From the IMG/VR virus record IMGVR_UViG_2767802105_000001, positions 1 to 64,000 of that record: a stretch of DNA of 64,000 nucleotides. One strand, written 5' to 3'. The first letter of the stretch is position 1. Each line of letters begins with the position of its first letter. Under the pieces are notes generated by a model. The model did not search any database. It was not told the origin of the DNA and saw only the letters and a list, made by a program, of their open reading frames with translations. The stretch is from a virus (lineage: Duplodnaviria > Caudoviricetes). The position numbers and the translations under genes were made by a program. Of the stretch, positions 723-58,312 are shown in pieces.

Positions 723-902
723 ATGTCCTCCACTCCTCCACCCTCGGGGCCAGCACGGTCTGCTGCGGCCGTGGATGCGGAGATCCGCGCCCTTCTTCAG
801 GCGACGGGCGGCTGGTTGTGGGGGCCGACGCGGGCCCGGTACGAGGAGCTGCGGGACGAGTGGGTGGCCGCCGTCCGCGACGAGATCACCACAGCGGCGT
901 AG
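723..902 (+). CDS. Small hypothetical protein (59 aa)
   Basis: ATG 723, MSSTPPPSGPARSAAAVDAEIRALL...EWVAAVRDEITTAA, followed by a hairpin terminator; below ORF-track cutoff. Confidence 0.6.
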   Translation: MSSTPPPSGPARSAAAVDAEIRALLQATGGWLWGPTRARYEELRDEWVAAVRDEITTAA

Positions 903-910
903 AGTGCGCG

Positions 911-947
911 ACGAAGCCCCGGCCACTAGACCTGGCCGGGGCTTCGT
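911..947. terminator. Bidirectional hairpin terminator
   Basis: ACGAAGCCCCGGCCA-CTAGACC-TGGCCGGGGCTTCGT perfect stem between convergent genes. Confidence 0.8.
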
Positions 948-7271: not shown

Positions 7272-7412
7272 GGGGTGCCCGAGATCGAGGTCGGCTGCGG
7301 AAACGTAGCGCTCTGGGCCGCTGAGCTACCAGCCCCGAAGGCTGGACGGGATTCGAACCCGCGTCTCTCTCTTAGCAGGAGAAGTATCCGCTGCCTGCGC
7401 ACCGGGCACCCC
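7272..7412 (-). ncRNA. yrlA: YrlA-type Y RNA (permuted tRNA mimic)
   Basis: Closing stem GGGGTGCCC/GGGCACCCC; T arm GCGGG-TTCGAAT-CCCGT precedes closed acceptor-like stem CCAGCC/GGCTGG and D arm GCTC-AGCGGCCCA-GAGC; immediately upstream of Ro60 gene. Confidence 0.9.
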
Positions 7413-43260: not shown

Positions 43261-43497
43261 ATGACGCCACGCCCCGACCCGCAGACCGAGGCCGTTTGGC
43301 TTCGCAAGCTCGACCGCGCCACGACCGCCCACGAGAAGGCGCGCGCCACGCTGGAGGAGCTGATCGCGGACGCCCGCACGGCTGGCGTCCCACTGATGAC
43401 GATCGCTAAGCACACGCCGTACAGCCGCGAGTGGGCACGAAAGATCGCCGACCGCATCGACAAGGAGCGAGCCGCCAGGACGGAGGGGCAGGCATGA
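43261..43497 (+). CDS. Small HTH DNA-binding protein
   Basis: ARTAGVPLMTIAKHTPYSREWARKIA HTH-like; divergent from 43092. Confidence 0.75.
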   Translation: MTPRPDPQTEAVWLRKLDRATTAHEKARATLEELIADARTAGVPLMTIAKHTPYSREWARKIADRIDKERAARTEGQA

Positions 43498-44030
43498 GGA
43501 CTGTCGCCGAGGTCGACGCATTCACCGCCGCCGCTCACGCCGGGCAGGTGGACAAGATCGGCGTCCCGTACATCGAGCACGTCCGCGCCGTGGCCGCCGG
43601 GCTCGCCCCGTTCGGCGACGAGTTGGTGATGGCCGGGCTGCTGCACGACGTCATCGAGGACACGGACGTGACCGCCGCCCAGCTGCTTGCCATGGGGGTC
43701 CCATTGCGGGTGGTCGGCATCGTCAAGGACGTCACCAACCAGCCTGGCGTGCCCTACGAGGAGAAGATCCGCCGGATCATCCGCAGCTGTGACGCCACCC
43801 TCGTGAAGATCGCCGACAACGCGCACAACAGCCACCCCGACCGTGCCGCCCTACTCCCCGAAGAGAAGCGGACGCGGCTCGCCGCGAAGTACCGGGCCGC
43901 ACGTGACGTGCTGTGGGGCGCCGCCGATGACCGGGACATCGAAGCCATCGTCACGATCGTCAACCCGGCACTGCTCGACGAACTCCGAGAGCGGCAGACA
44001 GACCAGGCCCAGGAGGCGCAGGATGGATGA
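43494..44030 (+). CDS. HD-domain small alarmone hydrolase (Mesh1/SpoT-HD-like)
   Basis: AHAGQVDK.G.PYIEH, LLHDVIEDT, VKIADNAHN. Confidence 0.88.
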   Translation: MRTVAEVDAFTAAAHAGQVDKIGVPYIEHVRAVAAGLAPFGDELVMAGLLHDVIEDTDVTAAQLLAMGVPLRVVGIVKDVTNQPGVPYEEKIRRIIRSCDATLVKIADNAHNSHPDRAALLPEEKRTRLAAKYRAARDVLWGAADDRDIEAIVTIVNPALLDELRERQTDQAQEAQDG

Positions 44031-47638: not shown

Positions 47639-49696
47639 CTACTTGTCGAGCGCCTCTGTGAGCTGCTCGAGGGTGTAGCCGTTCGGGTTGGTCATCCCAT
47701 CGATCGGGCCGAGCTTGCGGGTCCCGCCGGCCTCTGCCTCACGAAGGCGGGTCTGCAGGGCTGACTCGGTCAGCCCCTCGTAAGCGACCGGCCTGCGCGC
47801 CAGCAGCAGCTCCAGAAGCCGCACCGTCCGGGCTCGATCCACCCCGGCCTCCCTGAGGGCCGCGATGCAGTCGGCCAGCAGCACCTTGTTCGAAGGGGCC
47901 GCTTGCTCCGCCGTGCCGTACTCGGCCGCGAAACCGGTGAGAGTGCCGGCCTCCTTGCGGAGCTGGCGGCCACGCATGCAGATCTCGCGGAACTCGGGGA
48001 TCGTCATGAAGTCGGTCTTCAGCGTGACGTGTCCTTCTTCGCCACCCTGGTCGAGGACGACGACGCCCTTCTGGGCGTCAAGCAGCATGTGAGGCGCTGC
48101 GCCGGCGGCGACTGCGTCGTCACCGAGGACCATGCGGGAGCTGCTCGCACCCTTGACACGGAAGCAGGCGCGCTTGCGGCACACCTCGCGCAGCAGCGTC
48201 GGCACGCTAGTGGCGTCCGGGCGCTGGGTGATGAACAGGCCCATGCCGCCCACGTACCGGGAGACGCGCACGAACCGGGCCATCGTCTCGACCAGGACTT
48301 CCTTGCCGTTGCGTCCGCGGTCCTTGCTCTCCGGGTCGTCGTCCGTCTTGATCTTCATCATGGCGGCGGCGTCCAGGAGTTCCTGCAGCTCGTCGACGAT
48401 CAGCAGGGTCAGGCCGCGCTTCCACTCCTTGGCCAGCTCAGGGGTGAGCTTGCCCTCGGGGCAGCGCTCCGGGTTCTCCTCGGACAGCTGCTCCAAGCGC
48501 TCACCGATCTGCTGCATGTCGGCGATCAGTCCGTTCAGCAGGTCGAGGAAGGCGAGGATCTTGCCGGGGGTGTTCCCGGCGACGTAGGAGTGAGCGAACT
48601 GCTTGGTGCCGACCCAGTCGGGCCCGGCCTTGCCTGTGGCGACGTGGACGGTCATGTGAGGGTCGAGGGCCGCGGCGGCAGCTACGAGACGGGCCAGGAA
48701 GCTCTTGCCGTAGTCGGGCAGGCCTCCCAGCAGGATGGAGCACCACACCAGTTCCAGGGCGTGCCGGGCTCCGCGGGCGTCGATGCCCAACGGCACCCCG
48801 TACTGCCAGAAGTCCAGACGGTCCGCTGTCAGCAGCGGAGACGGGACCTTCTTGTCACCGTAGGGGTTGGCTTCGCTCGCCACCCACAGCACGACCTGCC
48901 CCTCATGGCCGTCCTCGGATGTGTCGGCACGCATCTCGATCTGGGACTTCTTCACCCGCATCGACGAGGCGAGCTCTTCAGCGCGCGAGGTCGCGGCGGA
49001 CGCCTTCATGCCGCGGGGCAGCTCGATTGTGGCTGTCCAGCCGGGGCCAGCCGGCTGGATGATGCCGACGACGTGCGTCTCGTCGCGCTGAGCTTCGGTG
49101 ATGACCCCAGCCTTGACCAGGGCGGTGACGAGGTCGGATTCCCCGCGGATCTGGGCTGCGTCCCGCGGGGCGGCCGGGTTTTGCGGCAAGTCGGTGTCGG
49201 GCTGCTTGCGGTCGCGGCCGTGGAAGGCGCCGATACCCCACGCGCCGAGCCCGGCGAGGAGGTCGAGCCACAGGCTGCCGGTGGCTGCGCCGAAGGTGAC
49301 GCCACCGGCAACGGCACCGGCCACGCCCGCGGTCTTGCCGGTGTAGTTGAGGCGGTGCCGCTTGTACTCGGCGCGGAGTTCGGCCCTCCGCTCCTTGAGT
49401 CGGGCTTCCTGCATGACGTCGCCGTCGGCTTCGCGGATGGCCCGGTTGGTGGAGGCGATCATCTGCGGGTAGTCGTCGTGGAACCGGTCGATCCAGCGGC
49501 GGCCGAGCTGCCGGTAGCCGCGGACGGTGTGCGGCAGCAGGACAACCCGGGCGACCTTGTTGGTGGTGTCGGCGACGGCGCGGGCGGACTCGGTCCACTT
49601 CTTGCGGTCGGCCGGCGCGTCTTTGAAGACGGGTGTCTCGGCGGGCGGCGGAACGAGGGCGAGTGTGGGCCGCTCGTCGTACAGCGGGGTGGCCAT
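47639..49696 (-). CDS. traB: TraB-type FtsK/SpoIIIE DNA translocase
   Basis: N-terminal TMs, GGLPDYGKS Walker A, LIVDELQE, ITQRP, MVLG...AAGAAPH, C-terminal wHTH ending NGY. Confidence 0.88.
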   Translation of the reverse strand: MATPLYDERPTLALVPPPAETPVFKDAPADRKKWTESARAVADTTNKVARVVLLPHTVRGYRQLGRRWIDRFHDDYPQMIASTNRAIREADGDVMQEARLKERRAELRAEYKRHRLNYTGKTAGVAGAVAGGVTFGAATGSLWLDLLAGLGAWGIGAFHGRDRKQPDTDLPQNPAAPRDAAQIRGESDLVTALVKAGVITEAQRDETHVVGIIQPAGPGWTATIELPRGMKASAATSRAEELASSMRVKKSQIEMRADTSEDGHEGQVVLWVASEANPYGDKKVPSPLLTADRLDFWQYGVPLGIDARGARHALELVWCSILLGGLPDYGKSFLARLVAAAAALDPHMTVHVATGKAGPDWVGTKQFAHSYVAGNTPGKILAFLDLLNGLIADMQQIGERLEQLSEENPERCPEGKLTPELAKEWKRGLTLLIVDELQELLDAAAMMKIKTDDDPESKDRGRNGKEVLVETMARFVRVSRYVGGMGLFITQRPDATSVPTLLREVCRKRACFRVKGASSSRMVLGDDAVAAGAAPHMLLDAQKGVVVLDQGGEEGHVTLKTDFMTIPEFREICMRGRQLRKEAGTLTGFAAEYGTAEQAAPSNKVLLADCIAALREAGVDRARTVRLLELLLARRPVAYEGLTESALQTRLREAEAGGTRKLGPIDGMTNPNGYTLEQLTEALDK

Positions 49697-49704
49697 GATG
49701 CTCC

Positions 49705-50817
49705 TCAGTGGTGGTGGCCGTTGGCGGCGGGGATTCGGCGGGGGGTGCCGCCTCGCTCGAGGGCTGCTTCGGTCTTGGCGATGGGGTGGAACGGGACCGC
49801 GTCGCCCTTGCTCCGGCGGTGCAGCGGAGGGGTCTTGCGGCCACCCTTCTGTGCCGCCTTCTGGGGCCTCTCAGGGGTGGGGGGTAGATCGGACGCGACC
49901 TGCGAAGATCCAGGCCGGTAGATGAGCGGTGAGGGGGATGGGTGGAGGCGTTCCAGGAGACGTCCGCGAGTACTCACCGGGGAGCCGTTCGCCTCGTCCA
50001 TGGCGGTCGTCAGAGACTGCCTCGACGCGAGCTGCTGGGCGTGCAGTGCGGGCGTCATTCCGGGCGTCGCGGTGCCGTAGAAGATCTCCCACGCGGCGGC
50101 GAACGCGGCCTCGAACTTGAGGGTCCCGAACGGTGCTGCCGACACGAGACGCTCGGCCAGGCGGACGACGTCCTTGTGGTCCTTCCAGCGCTTCCTCTCG
50201 TGCTTCGCGCGGGCCTTGTCGTCGCTGCGCCGCTTCCGCTCCGCCGCGTCGACCGTCAGCGTCGTCACCCACTGCCTCACTTCGAAGAACAGCGGGCCGA
50301 GGAGGGTGACGGCGGCAAGCCCCCAGCCGACTGCCGGGGCCGTGTGCCGCCCGTAGTCGTAGTTGATCCACGCGGCGAACCCCGCAGCGGTCAGGGCCAG
50401 CCCGCGGAGCAGCCACCGCACCCAGGCGGGGAGCTTCCGTTCGTCGGCGTAGGCGACGCCGGCGTTCATCACCCAGGCCGCGCCTTCCAGGGCGAACGGC
50501 AGGGGCAGCAGCATCACGGAGATCGTGACGAAGTGCATGACCTGCGCGGGCAGGGATGCGAGCGCGGAAGCGGCGACCAGGGCGAGGGTTCCCTTGCGGT
50601 ACACGTTGCCCGGGGTGAGGGTCTTCTCCCGGCGGGCGGCGCGGGCCTGACGGCGACTCGCCTTGTCCCGGCGACGCTGCGCTTCCTCTTCGCGGCGCTC
50701 CTTCTTCGCCTCGCGGGCTTCCTCACGGCGCAGCTTGGACTCGAACTCGCGGTCCTCGCGCCGCTGCTGCGCGTCGGCCGCCTTGTCGGCGCGGCGCTCC
50801 TCGAACCAGCTGCTCAC
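49705..50817 (-). CDS. Multi-TM coiled-coil protein, Spd/DUF2637-like transfer accessory
   Basis: Charged coil, about 4 TMs, adjacent to traB. Confidence 0.7.
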   Translation of the reverse strand: MSSWFEERRADKAADAQQRREDREFESKLRREEAREAKKERREEEAQRRRDKASRRQARAARREKTLTPGNVYRKGTLALVAASALASLPAQVMHFVTISVMLLPLPFALEGAAWVMNAGVAYADERKLPAWVRWLLRGLALTAAGFAAWINYDYGRHTAPAVGWGLAAVTLLGPLFFEVRQWVTTLTVDAAERKRRSDDKARAKHERKRWKDHKDVVRLAERLVSAAPFGTLKFEAAFAAAWEIFYGTATPGMTPALHAQQLASRQSLTTAMDEANGSPVSTRGRLLERLHPSPSPLIYRPGSSQVASDLPPTPERPQKAAQKGGRKTPPLHRRSKGDAVPFHPIAKTEAALERGGTPRRIPAANGHHH

Positions 50818-50839
50818 GGTGATCGATTCCTTCCGGGTG

Positions 50840-51040
50840 TCAGAGGGTGGCGTGCGTGCGGGCCGGACAGTGGCGGAGCCAGGTGATGACGGCGGCCAGC
50901 AGCCACGCCGAGGTGGGGACGGCGCCGAGGATCGCGCCGAACCCGGCGAACGTGGCCGTGACCGGGGCGATGGCGGCGGGCCACAGGCCGACGGTCAGCA
51001 GGTACAGGGCGAGCAGCACCCAGGCGATGATGCGGAGCAT
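50840..51040 (-). CDS. Small hydrophobic spread-like protein
   Basis: Hydrophobic 66 aa ORF in transfer cluster. Confidence 0.65.
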   Translation of the reverse strand: MLRIIAWVLLALYLLTVGLWPAAIAPVTATFAGFGAILGAVPTSAWLLAAVITWLRHCPARTHATL

Positions 51041-51085
51041 GGCGACCTCTCTCGGGGGTCGGTGCGGACGGTGGGGGTTCGGTTG

Positions 51086-51137
51086 GCGCCCTGGCCTGCT
51101 TTGAGGCGGTAGACCCGTGATCGGTCGGCCGGGGCTG
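51086..51137. ncRNA. Structured motif, copy B (unassigned)
   Basis: Three-stem fold with loop CGTGATC; similar to copy at 51754. Confidence 0.5.
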
Positions 51138-51142
51138 GCGGA

Positions 51143-51520
51143 TCAGCGGTCGACGACCGGCCTTTCCAGGTCGCGGTGTACGACGGAGGCGGTGACGTTC
51201 TCGTCGGCGAGGGCCGTCCGGATCGCCTCGGCCACTACCGCGGCCCGGTGTCGGCCGCCAGCACAGCCGACCGCCACGTTCACGGCCCGGCCGCCCGGCC
51301 CGTTGAGGTAGGCCACGACCGCATCAGAGATCGCCTCCACCAGCGCAGGGATGCCGGGCGTACCGAGGACCGCCTGGCGGACCTCGCTGTCGTGGGCGGT
51401 CATGTGGCGCAGCACCGGGGAGACATGCGGGTCCCGGAAGTGGCGGCGCAGGTCGAGGGTCAGGTGCGCGGCGGGCGGGGCGCCGTGCAGGTAGCCGAAG
51501 CTGGTGATCGTGGCGGTCAT
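51143..51520 (-). CDS. RapZ C-terminal-domain-only protein
   Basis: ITSFGYLHG, DLR..FRDP, VAVGCAGGRHR, VVHRDL. Confidence 0.88.
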   Translation of the reverse strand: MTATITSFGYLHGAPPAAHLTLDLRRHFRDPHVSPVLRHMTAHDSEVRQAVLGTPGIPALVEAISDAVVAYLNGPGGRAVNVAVGCAGGRHRAAVVAEAIRTALADENVTASVVHRDLERPVVDR

Positions 51521-51714
51521 CGGCGGCCGGCCTTCCAGCCAGAGCCCTGCGTCCAGCCGCGGCGCCGGGCCTCGGTGATCATGCCGTTCAGGTCCTCGTG
51601 GAGGGCGGCCTCCCGCTTGTGGTCACCGGAGTCCGCGGCTTCCTTCGCGGCGGTGGCGGCGAGGTCCATGCTCTGCTGGAGGTCGGCGTCGCTCGCCTTG
51701 GTGTACCAGGCCAT
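51517..51714 (-). CDS. Hypothetical protein
   Basis: GAGGAG SD, ATGA overlap with RapZ-CTD gene. Confidence 0.75.
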   Translation of the reverse strand: MAWYTKASDADLQQSMDLAATAAKEAADSGDHKREAALHEDLNGMITEARRRGWTQGSGWKAGRR

Positions 51715-51753
51715 CAGGGTTCTCCTCTTGATCGATTGGTTGACGGGGGTGCA

Positions 51754-51806
51754 GCGCCCCGGTCTGCGTTTGCGGCATAGGCCCGTGATCGGCCAAGCCG
51801 GGGCTG
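51754..51806. ncRNA. Structured motif, copy A (unassigned)
   Basis: Three-stem fold with loop CGTGATC; covaries with copy B. Confidence 0.5.
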
Positions 51807-51852
51807 GGGTGCCGGGACGCGGTGGGGGTTCCGCGCCCCGGCGGTGGGCGGG

Positions 51853-52092
51853 TCAGGCGGCGGCGGGGTAGTCGAAGCCGTCGAGCTCGGCGACCAGGTC
51901 GGCGTCCATCCCGGCCGCGTAGTCGCGCACGGCGGCCATGCGGGCCGGGTCACCGGAGCGGCGGGCGTCGGCGTACTCGGCGAACAGGTCGGCGATCGAC
52001 AGGGTCAGCGCGTCGGCGACGGTCGTGATCGTGCGGGCCTTCAGGCCGATCTCGGTGCGGCCCAGGTCGGCGGAGAACAGGTACGGAGACAT
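51853..52092 (-). CDS. Hypothetical protein
   Basis: MSPYLFSAD..., GAAAGG SD. Confidence 0.7.
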   Translation of the reverse strand: MSPYLFSADLGRTEIGLKARTITTVADALTLSIADLFAEYADARRSGDPARMAAVRDYAAGMDADLVAELDGFDYPAAA

Positions 52093-52271
52093 GGCGGTGC
52101 CCTTTCGGGTGCAAGAAGTGGATGGGGATGGGGTGGGGTGGAGGGCCGCGGCCGGCGGGACGGGGGGTTGACACCGCCGGCCGCGGCGGCATGGGGCGGG
52201 CAGTCAGCCCTGGGGGTGGGGGCGCGGCGGCCGAGTCGGCAAGGGCTCCTTCGCCCGCTCGTGCTCGGCCA

Positions 52272-52436
52272 TCACGCGGCCTGGTGCAGGTGGCGGCAGC
52301 GGTCCCGCCAGTCCAGGTGGACCGGGCACGTCACCCGCTGCTCGGCCGGGACCTCCCGGGCCGTCTCCTGGTACAGGCGCCGCAGCAGATCGTCGGAAGC
52401 GTCCGCGCGGATCGCGGCAACCGTCGAGTTCGCCAT
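52272..52436 (-). CDS. Small protein with CPVH..W...C..H motif
   Basis: TGATG overlap with upstream gene. Confidence 0.6.
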   Translation of the reverse strand: MANSTVAAIRADASDDLLRRLYQETAREVPAEQRVTCPVHLDWRDRCRHLHQAA

Positions 52437-52888
52437 CACACGCCGCCGACCAGGTCGAGGCGACCGGCGCGCTTCAGCTCGAAGTACAGGTCGGCCCGCT
52501 CGTCCTGCACGCCGTGCAGCTCCCGCCAGTCCGCCGGCGTCATGTAGTGCGAGTCCCGCACCGTCAGCCGGTCGATCACCGTCGACAGGGCACGGAACCG
52601 GGCGGCCTTCGCGTACATGGCGTCGACCAGGTCGAGCCTGCCCGCCTCGGCGAGGACGGTACGGGCGGCGGCCATGACGTCCTCGGCGTCGGCCAGCGAC
52701 CGCGCGTCCAGGTCCGACATGCGCCCGGACTCGGCGAGCCCGGCGAGCTGCGCGGCGTGCACGGCCGCCGTCTCGTACTCGGCAACCGCCCGCACGACCG
52801 GGAAGTGCGGCAGGGCGCGGGCCAGCGCGGCGGCGGCCTCCGGCGGCAACGGGGCGGTGGACGGGGCGGGGATGGTGGTCGACATCAC
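52436..52888 (-). CDS. Hypothetical protein with duplicated AGRLDLV motif
   Basis: AAGGAGG SD, internal repeat. Confidence 0.75.
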   Translation of the reverse strand: MMSTTIPAPSTAPLPPEAAAALARALPHFPVVRAVAEYETAAVHAAQLAGLAESGRMSDLDARSLADAEDVMAAARTVLAEAGRLDLVDAMYAKAARFRALSTVIDRLTVRDSHYMTPADWRELHGVQDERADLYFELKRAGRLDLVGGV

Positions 52889-53085
52889 GCGGCCTCCTTG
52901 GCGGCAGTCGGTGCGTCCGTCGAATTCAGGACGGACTCCGGGATGCGGAGGGCGCCGGTCGCGCCATCCCCGGGCGTGTAGGGCCGGCCGTTCCTGTAGG
53001 CCGGGAGATCTCCCTGGTGGATCCAGCGGTAGACGGTCGCGGGGTGCACTCGGAAGTGCGTCGCGACGTCCCGAACTCGCAGCAT
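52885..53085 (-). CDS. Excisionase-like HTH protein
   Basis: LRVRDVATHFRVHPATVYRWIHQGDLPAYR...LRIP. Confidence 0.85.
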   Translation of the reverse strand: MLRVRDVATHFRVHPATVYRWIHQGDLPAYRNGRPYTPGDGATGALRIPESVLNSTDAPTAAKEAA

Positions 53086-53259
53086 TGCGCCTCCGATCGA
53101 GTGCTTCGCATCTATCAGCAGACGTTAATAGCTTACGTATCTAGGTAGCAAGCCTCGCGGCATGGATCTGGCCAGAGATGACCCGACAGGCGTAAGCATC
53201 AAGGGATTAAGGTGGGGAGGTCAGCAGCCACAGACCCAACCGGAGAGGAGGCGCCAGAG

Positions 53260-53790
53260 ATGGCCGATAAGCAGCGGCAGTCGGACTCGCTCACCTACGT
53301 CGCACCACAGGAGAACGGGCAAGCCGACGCCTGGACCCAGGAAGCCGGACGACGAGGCGGCCAGCAGCTCGTCGAGGTCGCGGAAGTCACTCCGCCCGAG
53401 CCGGTAGCCACGGCACTACGCCTCTCCCCCGGAGAGTCGGCCATCGTCCGACGCCGGGCAATCTCACTGGACGGGGACGTGATCGAGCTCGCCGACTCGT
53501 ACTACCCGCCCGCCGTTGCCCGCGGTACCGCCCTCGCCGAGAAGCGGAAGATCAAGGGTGGCGCCCCGACCCTGCTGGCAGAGCTCGGCTACCAGGCGCG
53601 CCATGTCACCGAAGACCTGGAGTTCCGGGCCGCCGACGCTGCCGAACTCGAGGCGCTCTCCCTCCCCAAGGGGGCCAGCGTGCTCAGCCTGCTACGCACC
53701 ACCATCACCGACGACGGGAGTCCCTTCGAAGTGCAGCACATGGTCATGAAGGCGCCTCGCCGCCTCCACTACGAGATCGAGGTCGACTGA
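53260..53790 (+). CDS. UTRA-domain-only protein
   Basis: VATALRL, ELADSYYP, L.ELGY, FRAA...E...L; no HTH. Confidence 0.85.
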   Translation: MADKQRQSDSLTYVAPQENGQADAWTQEAGRRGGQQLVEVAEVTPPEPVATALRLSPGESAIVRRRAISLDGDVIELADSYYPPAVARGTALAEKRKIKGGAPTLLAELGYQARHVTEDLEFRAADAAELEALSLPKGASVLSLLRTTITDDGSPFEVQHMVMKAPRRLHYEIEVD

Positions 53791-53791
53791 C

Positions 53792-54556
53792 ATGCCCGAG
53801 CCGCACGAGGACAAGCGCCCCCTCGCCGAGCGCATCGCCGCAGAGATCAGAAAGCTGATCATGTCCGGCGACTGGGAGCCCGGTAAGCAGGTCCCGACCA
53901 ACGAGGCCCTCCGAACCCAGTACGAGACGTCCAACGTCACCATTCAGCGCGCCTTGCAGATCCTCAAGGACGAGAAGTTCCTCGAGGGCAAGACCGGCAT
54001 CGGCGTCTTCGTCCGAGGCGAACGAGCCCAGACGATCAGCCCCGCGCACTACATCGCCCCAGCCGAACCGGGTCAGCCGTACCGCTGGCTGACTGAGGCC
54101 ACCGGCCGTCAACAGCGCGGCAAGTACCGGATGCTCGCAGTCCAGGAGGTTGTCCCGCCGTCCGAGGTCGCGCGGGCACTGCGCCTCACGGATGGCGAGA
54201 CTGCGATGCTGCGCTCTCGCATCGGCTTCCTCGACGACCAGCCGGCCGAACTGGTGCATTCGTACTACCCGATCGAGCTGGCGCGGGACACACGGCTCGG
54301 CGACCGGCGCCTCATCCCCGGGGGCTCGCCTGCCCTGCTGGAGGAGATGGGCTACCCGACACGGTCGCAGGACGACGCGGTCGCCGCCCGGCCGGCGACA
54401 ACGGAAGAGTACGAGGCCCTGGAGATCCCGCGCGACGTGCCGGTGATCGAGGTCTTCCGCATCGTCTACAGCGACGATGAGAAGCCGATCGAGGTCACGC
54501 TCCTGACGAAGCCGGCCCACCGATTCAAGATGGGCTACCGCATCGAGATTTCCTGA
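53792..54556 (+). CDS. GntR/HutC-family repressor (Kor-like)
   Basis: GntR HTH (IAAEIRKLIMSG...TIQRAL...GIGVFV) plus UTRA; divergent from transfer operon. Confidence 0.9.
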   Translation: MPEPHEDKRPLAERIAAEIRKLIMSGDWEPGKQVPTNEALRTQYETSNVTIQRALQILKDEKFLEGKTGIGVFVRGERAQTISPAHYIAPAEPGQPYRWLTEATGRQQRGKYRMLAVQEVVPPSEVARALRLTDGETAMLRSRIGFLDDQPAELVHSYYPIELARDTRLGDRRLIPGGSPALLEEMGYPTRSQDDAVAARPATTEEYEALEIPRDVPVIEVFRIVYSDDEKPIEVTLLTKPAHRFKMGYRIEIS

Positions 54557-57649: not shown

Positions 57650-58312
57650 TCAGCGCGCGGTTTCGTAGGTGACGGTTTCGTTGGGGCACTGGTCGGCGAG
57701 GGCCTGGAGCGCGGTCTGTTCGGCGGGGTCGATGGCCATCCGCCACCGGCCCTTCACGACCACCCAGTAGGTGAAGTATTCGCACCGGTTGGCTTCGGAC
57801 GGCGGCAGCCAGGTGGCCGGGTCCTGGTCGGCTTTGCTTCGGTTGCTGCGGGCGGTGACGGCGATGAGGGAGCGGGGGTCGCCGAGGTCGTTGGCGTAGG
57901 CCTCGCGTTCGGCGGCGGTCCAGTCGCCGGCGCCGGAGTCGTGGGCTTCGGCGAGGGGTACGCGGTGGTCGATGTCGCTGCCGCGGGCGCCATGGATGTA
58001 GGTGTCGTCGTAGGGGCTGTACCAGACGCCGCCGACCAGGGTGCACCGGCCGGTGATCTCTGGGGCTTCGACGGCTTCCTCGAGGAGGACTTCCGCCCTC
58101 GTGTTGCAGCCGTCTTTGTCGGCGTCGATCCAGTGTTTGAATTCGCTGCGCTGGTAGCCGTCGCGGGTTTCGGCTTTGACGGGGAGGCTGTCGAGGAGGC
58201 TGCGGACGGGCAGGGTGTGACTGGTGCCGGGGCCGTCGGGTGCGGCGTGGGCGGGGCTGATGAGGGTGGCGAGGGCCGCTCCGGTGGCGGCGAGGGTGGC
58301 GAGGATACGCAC
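57650..58312 (-). CDS. Secreted HNH/DUF1524-type nuclease
   Basis: Signal peptide (AHA), GY.R..F.HW, CNTR..VL, DIDH.VPL.EA..SGA, SNRSK.D.DP..WLP. Confidence 0.88.
   Translation of the reverse strand: MRILATLAATGAALATLISPAHAAPDGPGTSHTLPVRSLLDSLPVKAETRDGYQRSEFKHWIDADKDGCNTRAEVLLEEAVEAPEITGRCTLVGGVWYSPYDDTYIHGARGSDIDHRVPLAEAHDSGAGDWTAAEREAYANDLGDPRSLIAVTARSNRSKADQDPATWLPPSEANRCEYFTYWVVVKGRWRMAIDPAEQTALQALADQCPNETVTYETAR

What the first reader, a model, noticed from the sequence alone, without database searches (positions are those of the whole stretch)
51069..51831. Two copies of an unannotated three-stem motif bracket a RapZ-CTD-only gene
Seen: GCGCCCTGGCCTGCTTTGAGGCGGTAGACCCGTGATCGGTCGGCCGGGGCTG (51086) and GCGCCCCGGTCTGCGTTTGCGGCATAGGCCCGTGATCGGCCAAGCCGGGGCTG (51754). 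Both fold into an outer stem plus two hairpins. The loop CGTGATC is invariant and its stem covaries (GACC/GGTC vs GGCC/GGCC). Mismatches read as G-U pairs on the plus strand, hinting at an antisense RNA. A 12-mer CGGTGGGGGTTC also occurs beside each (51069, 51820). Established: the RapZ C-terminal domain binds the sRNAs GlmY/GlmZ in enterobacteria. Inference: a small RNA-protein control system (processing, antitermination or antisense) gating the transfer operon; I do not recognise the motif.
Basis: partly seen in the sequence, partly recalled or inferred. Interest (0 to 1): 0.78.

Follow-up and report, generated by a model that had tools for sequence, protein, structure and literature searches.

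The report
tRNA-like spacers between mobile-element genes
The two repeats are real and belong to a so far undescribed family of small tRNA-shaped elements that sit between the genes of conjugative elements and phages of actinobacteria, probably marking where the long messenger RNA is cut or protected, and they are not specific to the RapZ-like gene.

Summary
Two ~52-nt direct repeats (51086-51136 and 51754-51805) flank a 65-aa ORF plus a RapZ-CTD-only gene. Rfam has no match.

All local genes are on the minus strand, and the repeats read in the gene sense. I found 16 distinct copies of this "A-type" in Streptomyces elements. Its three helices are 96.2% paired, and six pairs show compensatory changes.

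A-type is a rare variant of a larger family. The common "B-type" is a mini-tRNA: an acceptor-like stem, an invariant connector and a canonical T-arm with loop TTCGACT, then a purine and a C. B-type gave 141 model hits in 100 actinomycete loci and was 98.7% paired. It also occurs in Gordonia, Mycobacterium and Streptomyces phages, with 15 copies in phage VanLee.

The elements lie in intergenic gaps on the gene strand, next to many unrelated small genes. RapZ-CTD follows only 6 of 126 B-type copies, and 37 of 40 RapZ-CTD loci carry no element. RapZ-specific control and the antisense reading are therefore not supported.

Best mechanism, inferred and untested: tRNA-like punctuation of polycistronic mRNA by RNase P and RNase Z.

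The parts
51754..51805 (-). A-type element, copy 2. P1 (acceptor-like, 9 bp) pairs 51796-51804 with 51756-51764. P2 pairs 51791-51794 with 51780-51783, loop GATCACG. P3 pairs 51775-51776 with 51766-51767. The purine and C after P1 are at 51755 and 51754. The element ends 39 nt upstream of the ATG of the 65-aa ORF.
51086..51136 (-). A-type element, copy 1. It starts 6 nt after the RapZ-CTD stop codon and ends 45 nt upstream of the ATG of the 66-aa membrane-protein gene. P1 has one C.A mismatch, P2 is GACC/GGTC, and the P3 loop has 6 nt.
   Evidence: an orthologous copy lies upstream of the same membrane-protein gene in L003/L049 and L304
51820..51842 (-). Truncated third copy, holding only the 3' strand of P1 and the trailer that contains the 12-mer GAACCCCCACCG. 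It lies between the stop codon of the 79-aa gene and copy 2.
   Evidence: (D16)
51069..51080 (-). The 12-mer GAACCCCCACCG, which is part of the 3' trailer of copy 1.
51143..51520 (-). RapZ C-terminal-domain-only gene, 125 aa.
51517..51714 (-). 65-aa ORF with no family match. Its stop overlaps the RapZ-CTD start (ATGA).
   Evidence: the same ORF stands before RapZ-CTD in L003
50840..51040 (-). 66-aa hydrophobic protein gene, downstream of copy 1.
   Evidence: homologues follow A-type copies in L003, L050 and L304
51853..52092 (-). 79-aa ORF upstream of copy 2.
   Evidence: a homologue is present in L050
47639..50817 (-). Downstream genes of the same strand run: a 370-aa protein (49705-50817) and a 685-aa FtsK/TraB-like protein (47639-49696). 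The TraB call rests on a sub-threshold NCBIfam hit only.

Best explanation
The two repeats are cis-acting structured elements carried on the sense (minus-strand) polycistronic transcript of an actinomycete conjugative-element operon. They are a rare three-helix variant (A-type) of a widespread family of tRNA-like minihelices found in actinobacterial mobile elements.

Shown here: all variants share a closing helix like a tRNA acceptor stem (GCCCCGG/CCGGGGC in most). This helix stacks on a short hairpin with a 7-nt T-loop-like loop, so the 3' strand runs 12 nt from the loop to an unpaired purine, which is followed by a conserved C. That is the geometry of the acceptor/T-arm half of a tRNA.

Inferred mechanism: the host's tRNA end-processing enzymes recognise each unit. 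RNase P would cut at the 5' side and RNase Z or another 3' processing enzyme at the purine. The long mRNA would then be cut into gene-sized pieces with defined ends, as in mitochondrial tRNA punctuation or MALAT1/mascRNA, and a ~45-55-nt mini-tRNA would be released.

Which steps are shown: family membership, strand, position and structure. Which are inferred: transcription, cleavage and its consequences.
For: A-type structure. 16 distinct copies are 96.2% paired. Six of 15 pairs show changes on both sides (9 cells). 0 of 500 shuffles reach the observed value on four of five measures (2 of 500 on the fifth), and pairing collapses to about 50% when the 3' partners are slid by one column. An alignment of 13 copies made independently with MAFFT gives 95.9% pairing.

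B-type structure. There are 141 model hits in 100 loci. They are 98.7% paired, five pairs carry 53 compensatory cells, and 0 of 500 shuffles reach the observed value on four of five measures (1 of 500 on the fifth). The loop TTCGACT is present in 140 of 141, the connector ATGGTCG is almost invariant, and the base after the purine is C in 139 of 141. More compensatory stem variants occur in phages.

tRNA likeness. The best Rfam match of B-type, though sub-threshold, is the RNase P/Z-processed tRNA-like mascRNA (22.6 bits, E 0.064), aligned over the acceptor stem and T-arm.

Link between A-type and B-type.
- They have the same closing helix, the same purine-plus-C tail and the same 12-nt 3' strand.
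- Intermediate forms have loop ATCGAAT.
- They alternate in successive gaps of the same operons: L043, L046, L047, L048, L051, L052, L056, L203 and L298.
- The B-type model gives weak hits on A-type copies (E about 0.4).

Position and strand.
- Downstream coding is on the same strand in 82 cases, opposite in 6 and unclear in 49. Upstream coding is on the same strand in 40, opposite in 0 and unclear in 100.
- Elements start a median of 10 nt after an upstream stop codon (60 of 141) and lie a median of 89 nt before the next start codon (131 of 141).
- In phage VanLee all 15 copies are on the gene strand. In the 6-kb stretch I examined, 7 of the 8 copies lie in annotated gaps between genes and the eighth lies before the first annotated gene.

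A host-wide reader is plausible. The same loops are conserved in elements of Streptomyces, Nonomuraea, Streptosporangium, Herbidospora, Gordonia and Mycobacterium, which share no obvious element-encoded partner.
Against: - There are no expression or RNA-end data. No RNA run was available.
- The wobble test does not settle the strand for B-type. At the free T-stem positions there are 6 sense G-U cells against 12 sense C.A or A.C cells.
- In A-type the T-arm-like hairpin has only 2-3 bp. Its loop (CTCGAAA) has C where the tRNA T-loop consensus (recalled) has T at its first position, and 5 of 16 copies have a 6-nt loop.
- Single-sequence folds are not better than shuffles.
- No element ends in CCA as a rule.
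- In several B-type rows the base before the stem could pair with the purine after it. From recalled knowledge, canonical RNase P substrates tend to avoid this.
- Many copies stand in 5' leaders with no clear coding sequence upstream: upstream coding was unclear for 100 of 141. There, punctuation has nothing to separate.
- Alignments A5 and A9 are fitted to the models, which favours the modelled structure.
Confidence: 0.45

Rival explanations
1. Passive RNA hairpins. The elements act on the mRNA without tRNA enzymes, as decay barriers or stabilisers, translational insulators between cistrons, or U-less terminators or attenuators, in the way REP/BIME-type intergenic palindromes are thought to work.
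For: They are GC-rich helices placed right after stop codons. Other gaps of the same operons carry plain hairpins: window 52145-52187 is a 14-bp perfect stem, and there is a hairpin after RapZ-CTD in L003. In L044 the A-type copy is followed by a strong hairpin with a T-run before the next gene.
Against: A barrier hairpin does not need an invariant 7-nt loop, an invariant connector and a conserved purine-plus-C tail across genera while its stems covary. No terminator-like site with a T-run was found in window 50700-53300.
Confidence: 0.2
2. DNA-level sites. The repeats fold in single-stranded DNA or are bound as duplex, and serve as recombination or cassette-boundary sites (integron-attC-like or integrase pseudo-att sites), as REP-like mobile palindromes, or as binding sites for a transfer or regulatory protein.
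For: The arrangement is an array of small, highly variable genes, each bounded by a conserved oriented repeat. At the free T-stem positions, mismatches that would be G.T on the opposite strand outnumber sense G.T by 12 to 6. Elements of this kind integrate into tRNA genes (general knowledge, recalled).
Against: There are only 1-2 model hits per host genome, all in the element, and no chromosome-wide spread as with REPs. The elements occur both in phages and in conjugative elements, which share no recombinase that I identified. The T-loop consensus reads correctly only on the gene strand. The acceptor-like stem tolerates T.G on the sense strand in 28 cells against 1 A.C cell, although the 3' strand of most of these copies was fixed by the search pattern.
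Confidence: 0.12
3. The A-type RNA is the specific ligand of the neighbouring RapZ-CTD protein, forming a small RNA-protein switch for the transfer genes.
For: The RapZ C-terminal domain binds structured sRNAs in enterobacteria (established knowledge, recalled). In the window and in L043, L046, L047, L048, L051 and L052 an A-type copy precedes a small ORF plus RapZ-CTD, and a degenerate copy follows RapZ-CTD in L046, L047, L048 and L051. RapZ-CTD lies in 7 of 15 A-type loci against 21 of 111 B-type loci.
Against: Of 40 RapZ-CTD loci, 37 have no A- or B-type element. 8 of 15 A-type loci show no RapZ-CTD in the stretch held, some of these stretches being short. L050 is a syntenic element with an A-type copy and no RapZ-CTD. 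Most of the RapZ-linked A-type loci outside the window (L043, L046, L048, L052) are one closely related element, so the apparent enrichment is not made of independent observations. There is no match to GlmZ or GlmY.
Confidence: 0.07
4. Trans-acting mini-tRNAs. The units are excised and work as free tRNA mimics, for example as decoys or sponges for host factors that recognise tRNA acceptor/T-arm halves, rather than to shape the mRNA.
For: Loops, connector and tail are far more conserved than mere cleavage signals might require. Copy number is high in a phage, with 15 in VanLee. Copies in 5' leaders have nothing upstream to separate.
Against: No evidence of excision or accumulation. The anticodon arm is absent. 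No encoded CCA.
Confidence: 0.1

Closest known systems
Mitochondrial tRNA punctuation of polycistronic transcripts (recalled knowledge)
   Same: tRNA-shaped units sit between genes on the coding strand of a long transcript, typically one per gap. The expected readers are RNase P and RNase Z.
   Different: Here the units are not functional tRNAs, because they lack D and anticodon arms. The setting is bacterial mobile elements. Cleavage has not been shown.
MALAT1 mascRNA / MEN-beta tRNA-like element (Rfam RF01684)
   Same: It is an acceptor stem plus T-arm mimic embedded in a longer RNA. It is the best Rfam hit for B-type, though sub-threshold, aligned over both helices.
   Different: The score is 22.6 bits against a gathering score of 42.5, so B-type is not a member. 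mascRNA is eukaryotic, and there is no sequence relationship beyond the generic T-arm.
Non-tRNA substrates of bacterial RNase P, such as intercistronic sites in E. coli operon mRNAs and the phage P1/P7 C4 and P4 CI RNAs (recalled knowledge)
   Same: This is the precedent that bacterial RNase P cuts tRNA-like or minihelix-like features in mRNAs and in phage regulatory RNAs.
   Different: Those are single, idiosyncratic sites. Here there is a conserved, repeated family with a canonical T-arm across many elements.
REP/BIME intergenic palindromes and integron attC sites (recalled knowledge)
   Same: They are short structured repeats at gene boundaries, with conserved ends and covarying stems. attC sites bound small gene cassettes in one orientation.
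   Different: The elements here are not spread over the chromosome, with only 1-2 model hits per genome. No integron integrase or RAYT gene was noted nearby, but I did not search for either. The loop matches the tRNA T-loop.
GlmY/GlmZ sRNAs, the known RapZ ligands
   Same: A RapZ C-terminal domain gene lies next to structured RNA-like elements.
   Different: There is no Rfam match. The architecture differs. The elements occur mostly without RapZ-CTD, and RapZ-CTD occurs mostly without them.

Membership tests
tRNA gene (Rfam RF00005 / ARAGORN) | Full cloverleaf with D and anticodon arms, detected by tRNA models | tested here: not met
   There is no tRNA hit at the elements in the window, none in 10 element-bearing loci, and none in L046 at E<=10.
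tRNA-like minihelix (acceptor stem stacked on T-arm) | About 12 stacked base pairs closed by a 7-nt loop, then an unpaired purine | tested here: met
   In B-type, columns 39-50 form a 12-nt 3' strand, followed by a purine in 140 of 141 copies and a C in 139 of 141. In A-type, columns 43-54 form 12 nt, followed by a purine and then a C in 16 of 16 copies.
tRNA-like minihelix (acceptor stem stacked on T-arm) | T-loop consensus T-T-C-R-A-N-Y flanked by a G-C pair (consensus recalled) | tested here: inconclusive
   B-type has GGG-TTCGACT-CCC in 140 of 141 copies, so the feature is met. The window's A-type has CGCAAAC or CTCAAA, and most A-type copies have CTCGAAA. The central C-R-A is kept but the first T is not, and the stem has only 2-3 bp.
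mascRNA-menRNA (RF01684) | Score at or above the gathering threshold of 42.5 bits | tested here: not met
   B-type in L046 scores 22.6 bits, E 0.064. The window region gives no hit.
GlmY/GlmZ-type RapZ ligand | Match to the Rfam GlmY/GlmZ models | tested here: not met
   No hit at gathering thresholds or at E<=10 in 50800-52200.
   3 of 40 RapZ-CTD loci hold an element. RapZ-CTD is downstream of 6 of 126 B-type copies, in 21 of 111 B-type loci and in 7 of 15 A-type loci.
Intrinsic terminator | GC-rich stem followed by a T-run | tested here: not met
   0 terminator-like sites in 50700-53300. The tails after the elements are C-rich.
RNase P / RNase Z substrate | Cleavage at the first stem base and after the unpaired purine | not testable with these tools
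   This needs enzyme assays or RNA end mapping. No RNA run was listed.
REP-like dispersed palindrome | Many copies spread over the host chromosome | tested here: not met
   A-type gives 1-2 hits in each of 5 whole genomes. B-type gives 1-2 hits in each of the 17 positive genomes out of 151. Only part of the first-look candidates is scored per genome, so these are not exact copy numbers.
RapZ C-terminal domain protein (PF22740) | Pfam match above the cut-off, with no N-terminal P-loop domain | tested here: met
   93.4 bits against a cut-off of 27, residues 2-119 of 125. Only positions 161-278 of the full-length RapZ model are matched.

The most novel reading that the evidence does not exclude
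Actinobacterial phages, plasmids and integrative conjugative elements encode arrays of mini-tRNAs. Host RNase P and RNase Z would excise them from operon transcripts. The freed ~45-55-nt acceptor/T-arm mimics would then act in trans, for example as decoys for host defence enzymes that attack tRNA acceptor ends, or as sponges for tRNA-binding factors. On this reading the spacers between genes are themselves a counter-defence or host-takeover product.
Probability: 0.1. Interest if true: 0.9.

Novelty: new variant of a known kind. Interest (0 to 1): 0.78.

Why it matters
If the elements are processed like tRNAs, this would be the first described case of tRNA-style punctuation of polycistronic mRNAs in bacterial mobile elements. 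It would offer a simple rule for how phages and conjugative elements of Streptomyces, Nonomuraea, Gordonia and Mycobacterium set the ends and stabilities of their many small early or transfer gene messages.

It also adds a well-supported structured-element family, with strong covariation and invariant loops, that is absent from Rfam 15. It provides a compact, portable candidate processing signal for engineering actinomycete operons.

Finally, it corrects an attractive but unsupported idea that a plasmid-borne RapZ domain has a dedicated RNA partner.

Tried and rejected
- Rfam: no family at gathering thresholds in the whole window. The E<=10 scan of 50800-52200 gave only chance-level mir-632 and fiv_FSE.
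- Promoter and terminator consensus scan of 50700-53300: nothing on either count.
- Strict search for the window's loop core in the 40 RapZ-CTD loci: only chance matches. This was too strict, since the L003 copy differs by two bases, and I replaced it with covariance models.
- A loose A-type pattern on genome contigs returned 120 stretches from many phyla. I searched 57 of them with the A-type model and none scored at E<=0.01. L045, a gammaproteobacterial MAG, was also dropped as a chance match.
- A-type against PLSDB plasmids: no match.
- Sequencing runs: no RNA holder was listed. Read laying was not used, because the listed runs are kept as contigs and cannot show RNA ends.
- Resident tRNA as the source of B-type: in G001 the only matches to the T-arm/acceptor 3' pattern are the elements themselves. 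G002 has one genuine tRNA with the same acceptor stem. I did not pursue this.
- Wobble-based strand assignment for B-type: ambiguous.
- Papers: eight searches and one passage look-up found nothing on these elements. I saw only search listings and abstracts, plus one passage of PMC10732093 that was irrelevant. Subscription journals are not covered and no supplements were consulted.
- I made no structure or complex prediction, because the open question concerns RNA.
Full report
**What is in the window.** The region is high-GC actinomycete DNA. All genes around the finding lie on the minus strand. In transcription order they are:
- a 79-aa ORF (52092-51853);
- a 138-nt gap;
- a 65-aa ORF (51714-51517), whose stop overlaps the start of the next gene;
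- a 125-aa gene (51520-51143);
- a 102-nt gap;
- a 66-aa hydrophobic protein (51040-50840);
- a 370-aa protein;
- a 685-aa FtsK/TraB-like protein, supported only by a sub-threshold NCBIfam TraB hit.

The 125-aa protein is a RapZ C-terminal domain alone. It matches PF22740 at E 1.5e-26 and only positions 161-278 of the RapZ model. GntR/UTRA regulator genes and an HTH_17 gene lie just upstream. The tools hold the record as an 81-kb provirus, but this stretch looks like the transfer module of an integrative conjugative element. Homologues of the RapZ-CTD gene on Streptomyces and Kitasatospora plasmids are annotated "RNase adapter RapZ" or "P-loop ATPase".

**The observation.**
- The 11-mer core is exact only at 51114 and 51782 in the window. 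A core-plus-stem pattern hits only these two places in the whole record, and the reversed control gives none.
- The 12-mer "beside each copy" is exact only at 51069 and 51820.
- Alignment shows that the 12-mer belongs to the 3' trailer of the element. 51820-51842 is a truncated third copy, holding only the 3' stem strand and the trailer (also repeat D16).
- Single-sequence folds are not better than shuffled controls on either strand. Structure therefore had to be tested by comparison.
- Rfam has no family for the motif.

**Relatives of the window motif (A-type).** A pattern scan of species-representative genomes found nine Streptomyces loci and one chance hit. A covariance model built from nine copies found more:
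- 4 of 151 sampled Streptomyces genomes, including the one the sample was centred on;
- one of 100 B-type loci;
- three IMG/VR contigs.

This makes 16 distinct copies. All read in the sense of the flanking genes.

The three-helix model is 96.2% paired. Six of 15 pairs show changes on both sides. 0 of 500 shuffles reach the observed values on four of five measures (2 of 500 on the fifth), and pairing drops to about 50% when partners are slid by one column. That alignment is model-fitted, but a MAFFT alignment of 13 copies gives 95.9%.

The third helix is weak, at 2-3 bp.

On the 13-copy set the gene-sense strand has 9 G-U cells and 95.9% pairing. The opposite strand has 3 G-U cells and 92.8% pairing, and those 3 cells come from the two window copies. 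The antisense hint therefore does not generalise.

**The larger family.** Weak model hits in neighbouring gaps revealed a second form (B-type). It has an acceptor-like stem, a connector that starts ATGGTCG, a hairpin with GGG-TTCGACT-CCC, the 3' strand of the stem, then a purine and a C.
- This is the acceptor/T-arm half of a tRNA. Its best Rfam match, though sub-threshold, is the tRNA-like mascRNA. ARAGORN calls no tRNA there.
- A pattern scan returned 117 stretches. All loci it brought in (L178-L288, together with the already-held L043, L046 and L047) are actinomycetes: Streptomyces, Nonomuraea, Streptosporangium, Herbidospora, Spongiactinospora and Acrocarpospora. Many hold 2-5 copies per 8 kb.
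- A model built from 54 distinct copies found 141 hits in 100 of these loci.
- These hits are 98.7% paired, with 53 compensatory cells in five pairs and 0 of 500 shuffles reaching the observed value on four of five measures (1 of 500 on the fifth).
- The 7-nt loop, the connector and the C after the purine are almost invariant.
- The 20 hits that do not fit the search pattern carry further compensatory changes in both stems.
- B-type occurs in 17 of 151 sampled Streptomyces genomes, including the one the sample was centred on.
- The window's own record has none.

**Phages and plasmids.** B-type matches 15 phage records (Gordonia 9, Mycobacterium 5, Streptomyces phage Dagobah 1) and a Gordonia bronchialis plasmid. 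The matches fall almost always in unannotated gaps. In Gordonia phage VanLee the model finds 15 copies, all on one strand within 62-81 kb. In the 6-kb stretch I examined there are 8 copies, all on the gene strand; seven lie in annotated gaps of about 80-180 nt between small genes and the eighth lies before the first annotated gene. The phage copies have different stems (for example GCUCCG/CGGAGC and GCCUGG/CCAGGC) but the same loop and connector.

**Why A-type belongs with B-type.**
- Both have the same closing helix sequence, the same purine-plus-C tail, and a 12-nt continuous 3' strand between the small loop and the purine (A-type columns 43-54; B-type columns 39-50).
- Intermediate copies have the loop ATCGAAT.
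- The two types alternate in successive gaps of one operon. In L046, L047, L048 and L051 the order is A-type, small ORF, B-type, RapZ-CTD, then a degenerate third type; L043 and L052 show the same order as far as RapZ-CTD. In L298 the order is RapZ-CTD, B-type, small gene, A-type.
- That the short A-type hairpin is a degenerate T-arm is my inference. Its loop keeps the central C-R-A but not the first T.

**Context and the RapZ question.** By codon-position GC phase, coding sequence downstream of B-type copies is on the same strand in 82 cases, opposite in 6 and unclear in 49. Upstream it is on the same strand in 40, opposite in 0 and unclear in 100. An upstream ORF ends a median of 10 nt before the element in 60 of 141 cases. 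A downstream ORF starts a median of 89 nt after it in 131 of 141 cases, with a median length of 89 aa.

The 126 complete downstream proteins fall into many clusters:

| Cluster | Copies |
|---|---|
| unknown 95-aa family | 36 |
| DUF6284 | 20 |
| weak, sub-threshold DUF4097 match | 10 |
| 57-aa membrane protein | 8 |
| NUDIX | 7 |
| RapZ-CTD | 6 |
| singletons and small clusters | the rest |

Conversely, only 3 of 40 loci with close RapZ-CTD relatives hold any element: L003, L004 and L014. RapZ-CTD is present in 7 of 15 A-type loci and 21 of 111 B-type loci. Most of the RapZ-linked A-type loci outside the window (L043, L046, L048, L052) are one closely related element. The bracketing of RapZ-CTD in the window is therefore one instance of a general habit of these elements to sit in every sizeable gap of such operons.

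**Mechanism.**

*Shown:* this is a family of oriented intergenic elements. Their helices are maintained by compensatory change, and their unpaired parts are conserved across genera and across kinds of mobile element. Their shape is that of the tRNA acceptor/T-arm minihelix.

*Inferred:* a host-wide reader of that shape. The obvious candidates are RNase P and RNase Z, for which, from recalled knowledge, this minihelix is the minimal substrate. They would cut the polycistronic RNA at each unit.

*Against this, or still open:*
- there are no RNA data;
- the wobble test in the B-type T-stem is ambiguous, at 6 against 12;
- the A-type T-arm mimic is weak;
- many copies lie in 5' leaders.

The rivals are passive stabiliser or insulator hairpins, DNA-level recombination or binding sites, a dedicated RapZ-CTD ligand, and trans-acting mini-tRNAs. 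They are weighed in the fields above.

**Novelty.** I found no Rfam family and no paper in the eight searches and one passage look-up. These searches cover open-access papers and preprints only. The principle, tRNA-like units as processing signals, is known from mitochondria and from MALAT1. Its use as a repeated, conserved module in bacterial phages and conjugative elements appears to be undescribed.

Noticed in passing
window 52145-52187: A perfect 14-bp inverted repeat with a 15-nt loop lies in the 179-nt gap between the 55-aa and 79-aa genes of the same operon. It is a plain strong hairpin, not a tRNA-like unit.
   Followed up: partly
L044:4850-5230: Here an A-type copy sits in a long 5' leader. 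Upstream are a TTGACA box and two near-identical 14-mers. About 30 nt downstream is a strong hairpin with a T-run, just before a DUF6284 gene. The layout resembles an attenuator or a separate small RNA.
   Followed up: partly
L043, L046, L047, L051, L052, L054, just upstream of the A-type copy: A conserved palindrome of the form AGCGG-NCTAN-CCGCT directly precedes the element. L203 has GGTCTAGGTCTC further upstream. These may be operators of the neighbouring GntR-type regulators.
   Followed up: no
L290:1500-1575 (minus strand): This is a 76-nt tRNA with the same acceptor stem (GCCCCGG/CCGGGGC, discriminator A) as the elements. ARAGORN calls it tRNA-Leu(caa), although it has no long variable arm. 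The anticodon loop also reads TTCAAAA, so its identity is doubtful.
   Followed up: partly
window 53212-54556: Two adjacent UTRA-domain genes on the plus strand. The first (192 aa) has no GntR HTH match, and the second (254 aa) has both GntR and UTRA.
   Followed up: no
window 57650-58312 and 43431-44030: A GmrSD_C-type nuclease domain protein and an HD-domain protein lie close to the transfer module.
   Followed up: no
window 7337-7408: The only tRNA gene in the window is tRNA-Ser(gct) on the minus strand. Whether it marks an attachment site of the element was not examined.
   Followed up: no
L221:4100-5760: In Nonomuraea aurantiaca five B-type units are spaced 266-770 nt apart. Each precedes one gene (including a NUDIX hydrolase) of an operon that diverges from a GntR-like regulator. 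The first unit lies in the 5' leader.
   Followed up: partly
window 900-947 (minus strand): An ordinary terminator-like hairpin with the same GCCCCGG/CCGGGGC stem words follows a stop codon. It gave only a weak chance-level hit to the A-type model (E 1.3).
   Followed up: yes
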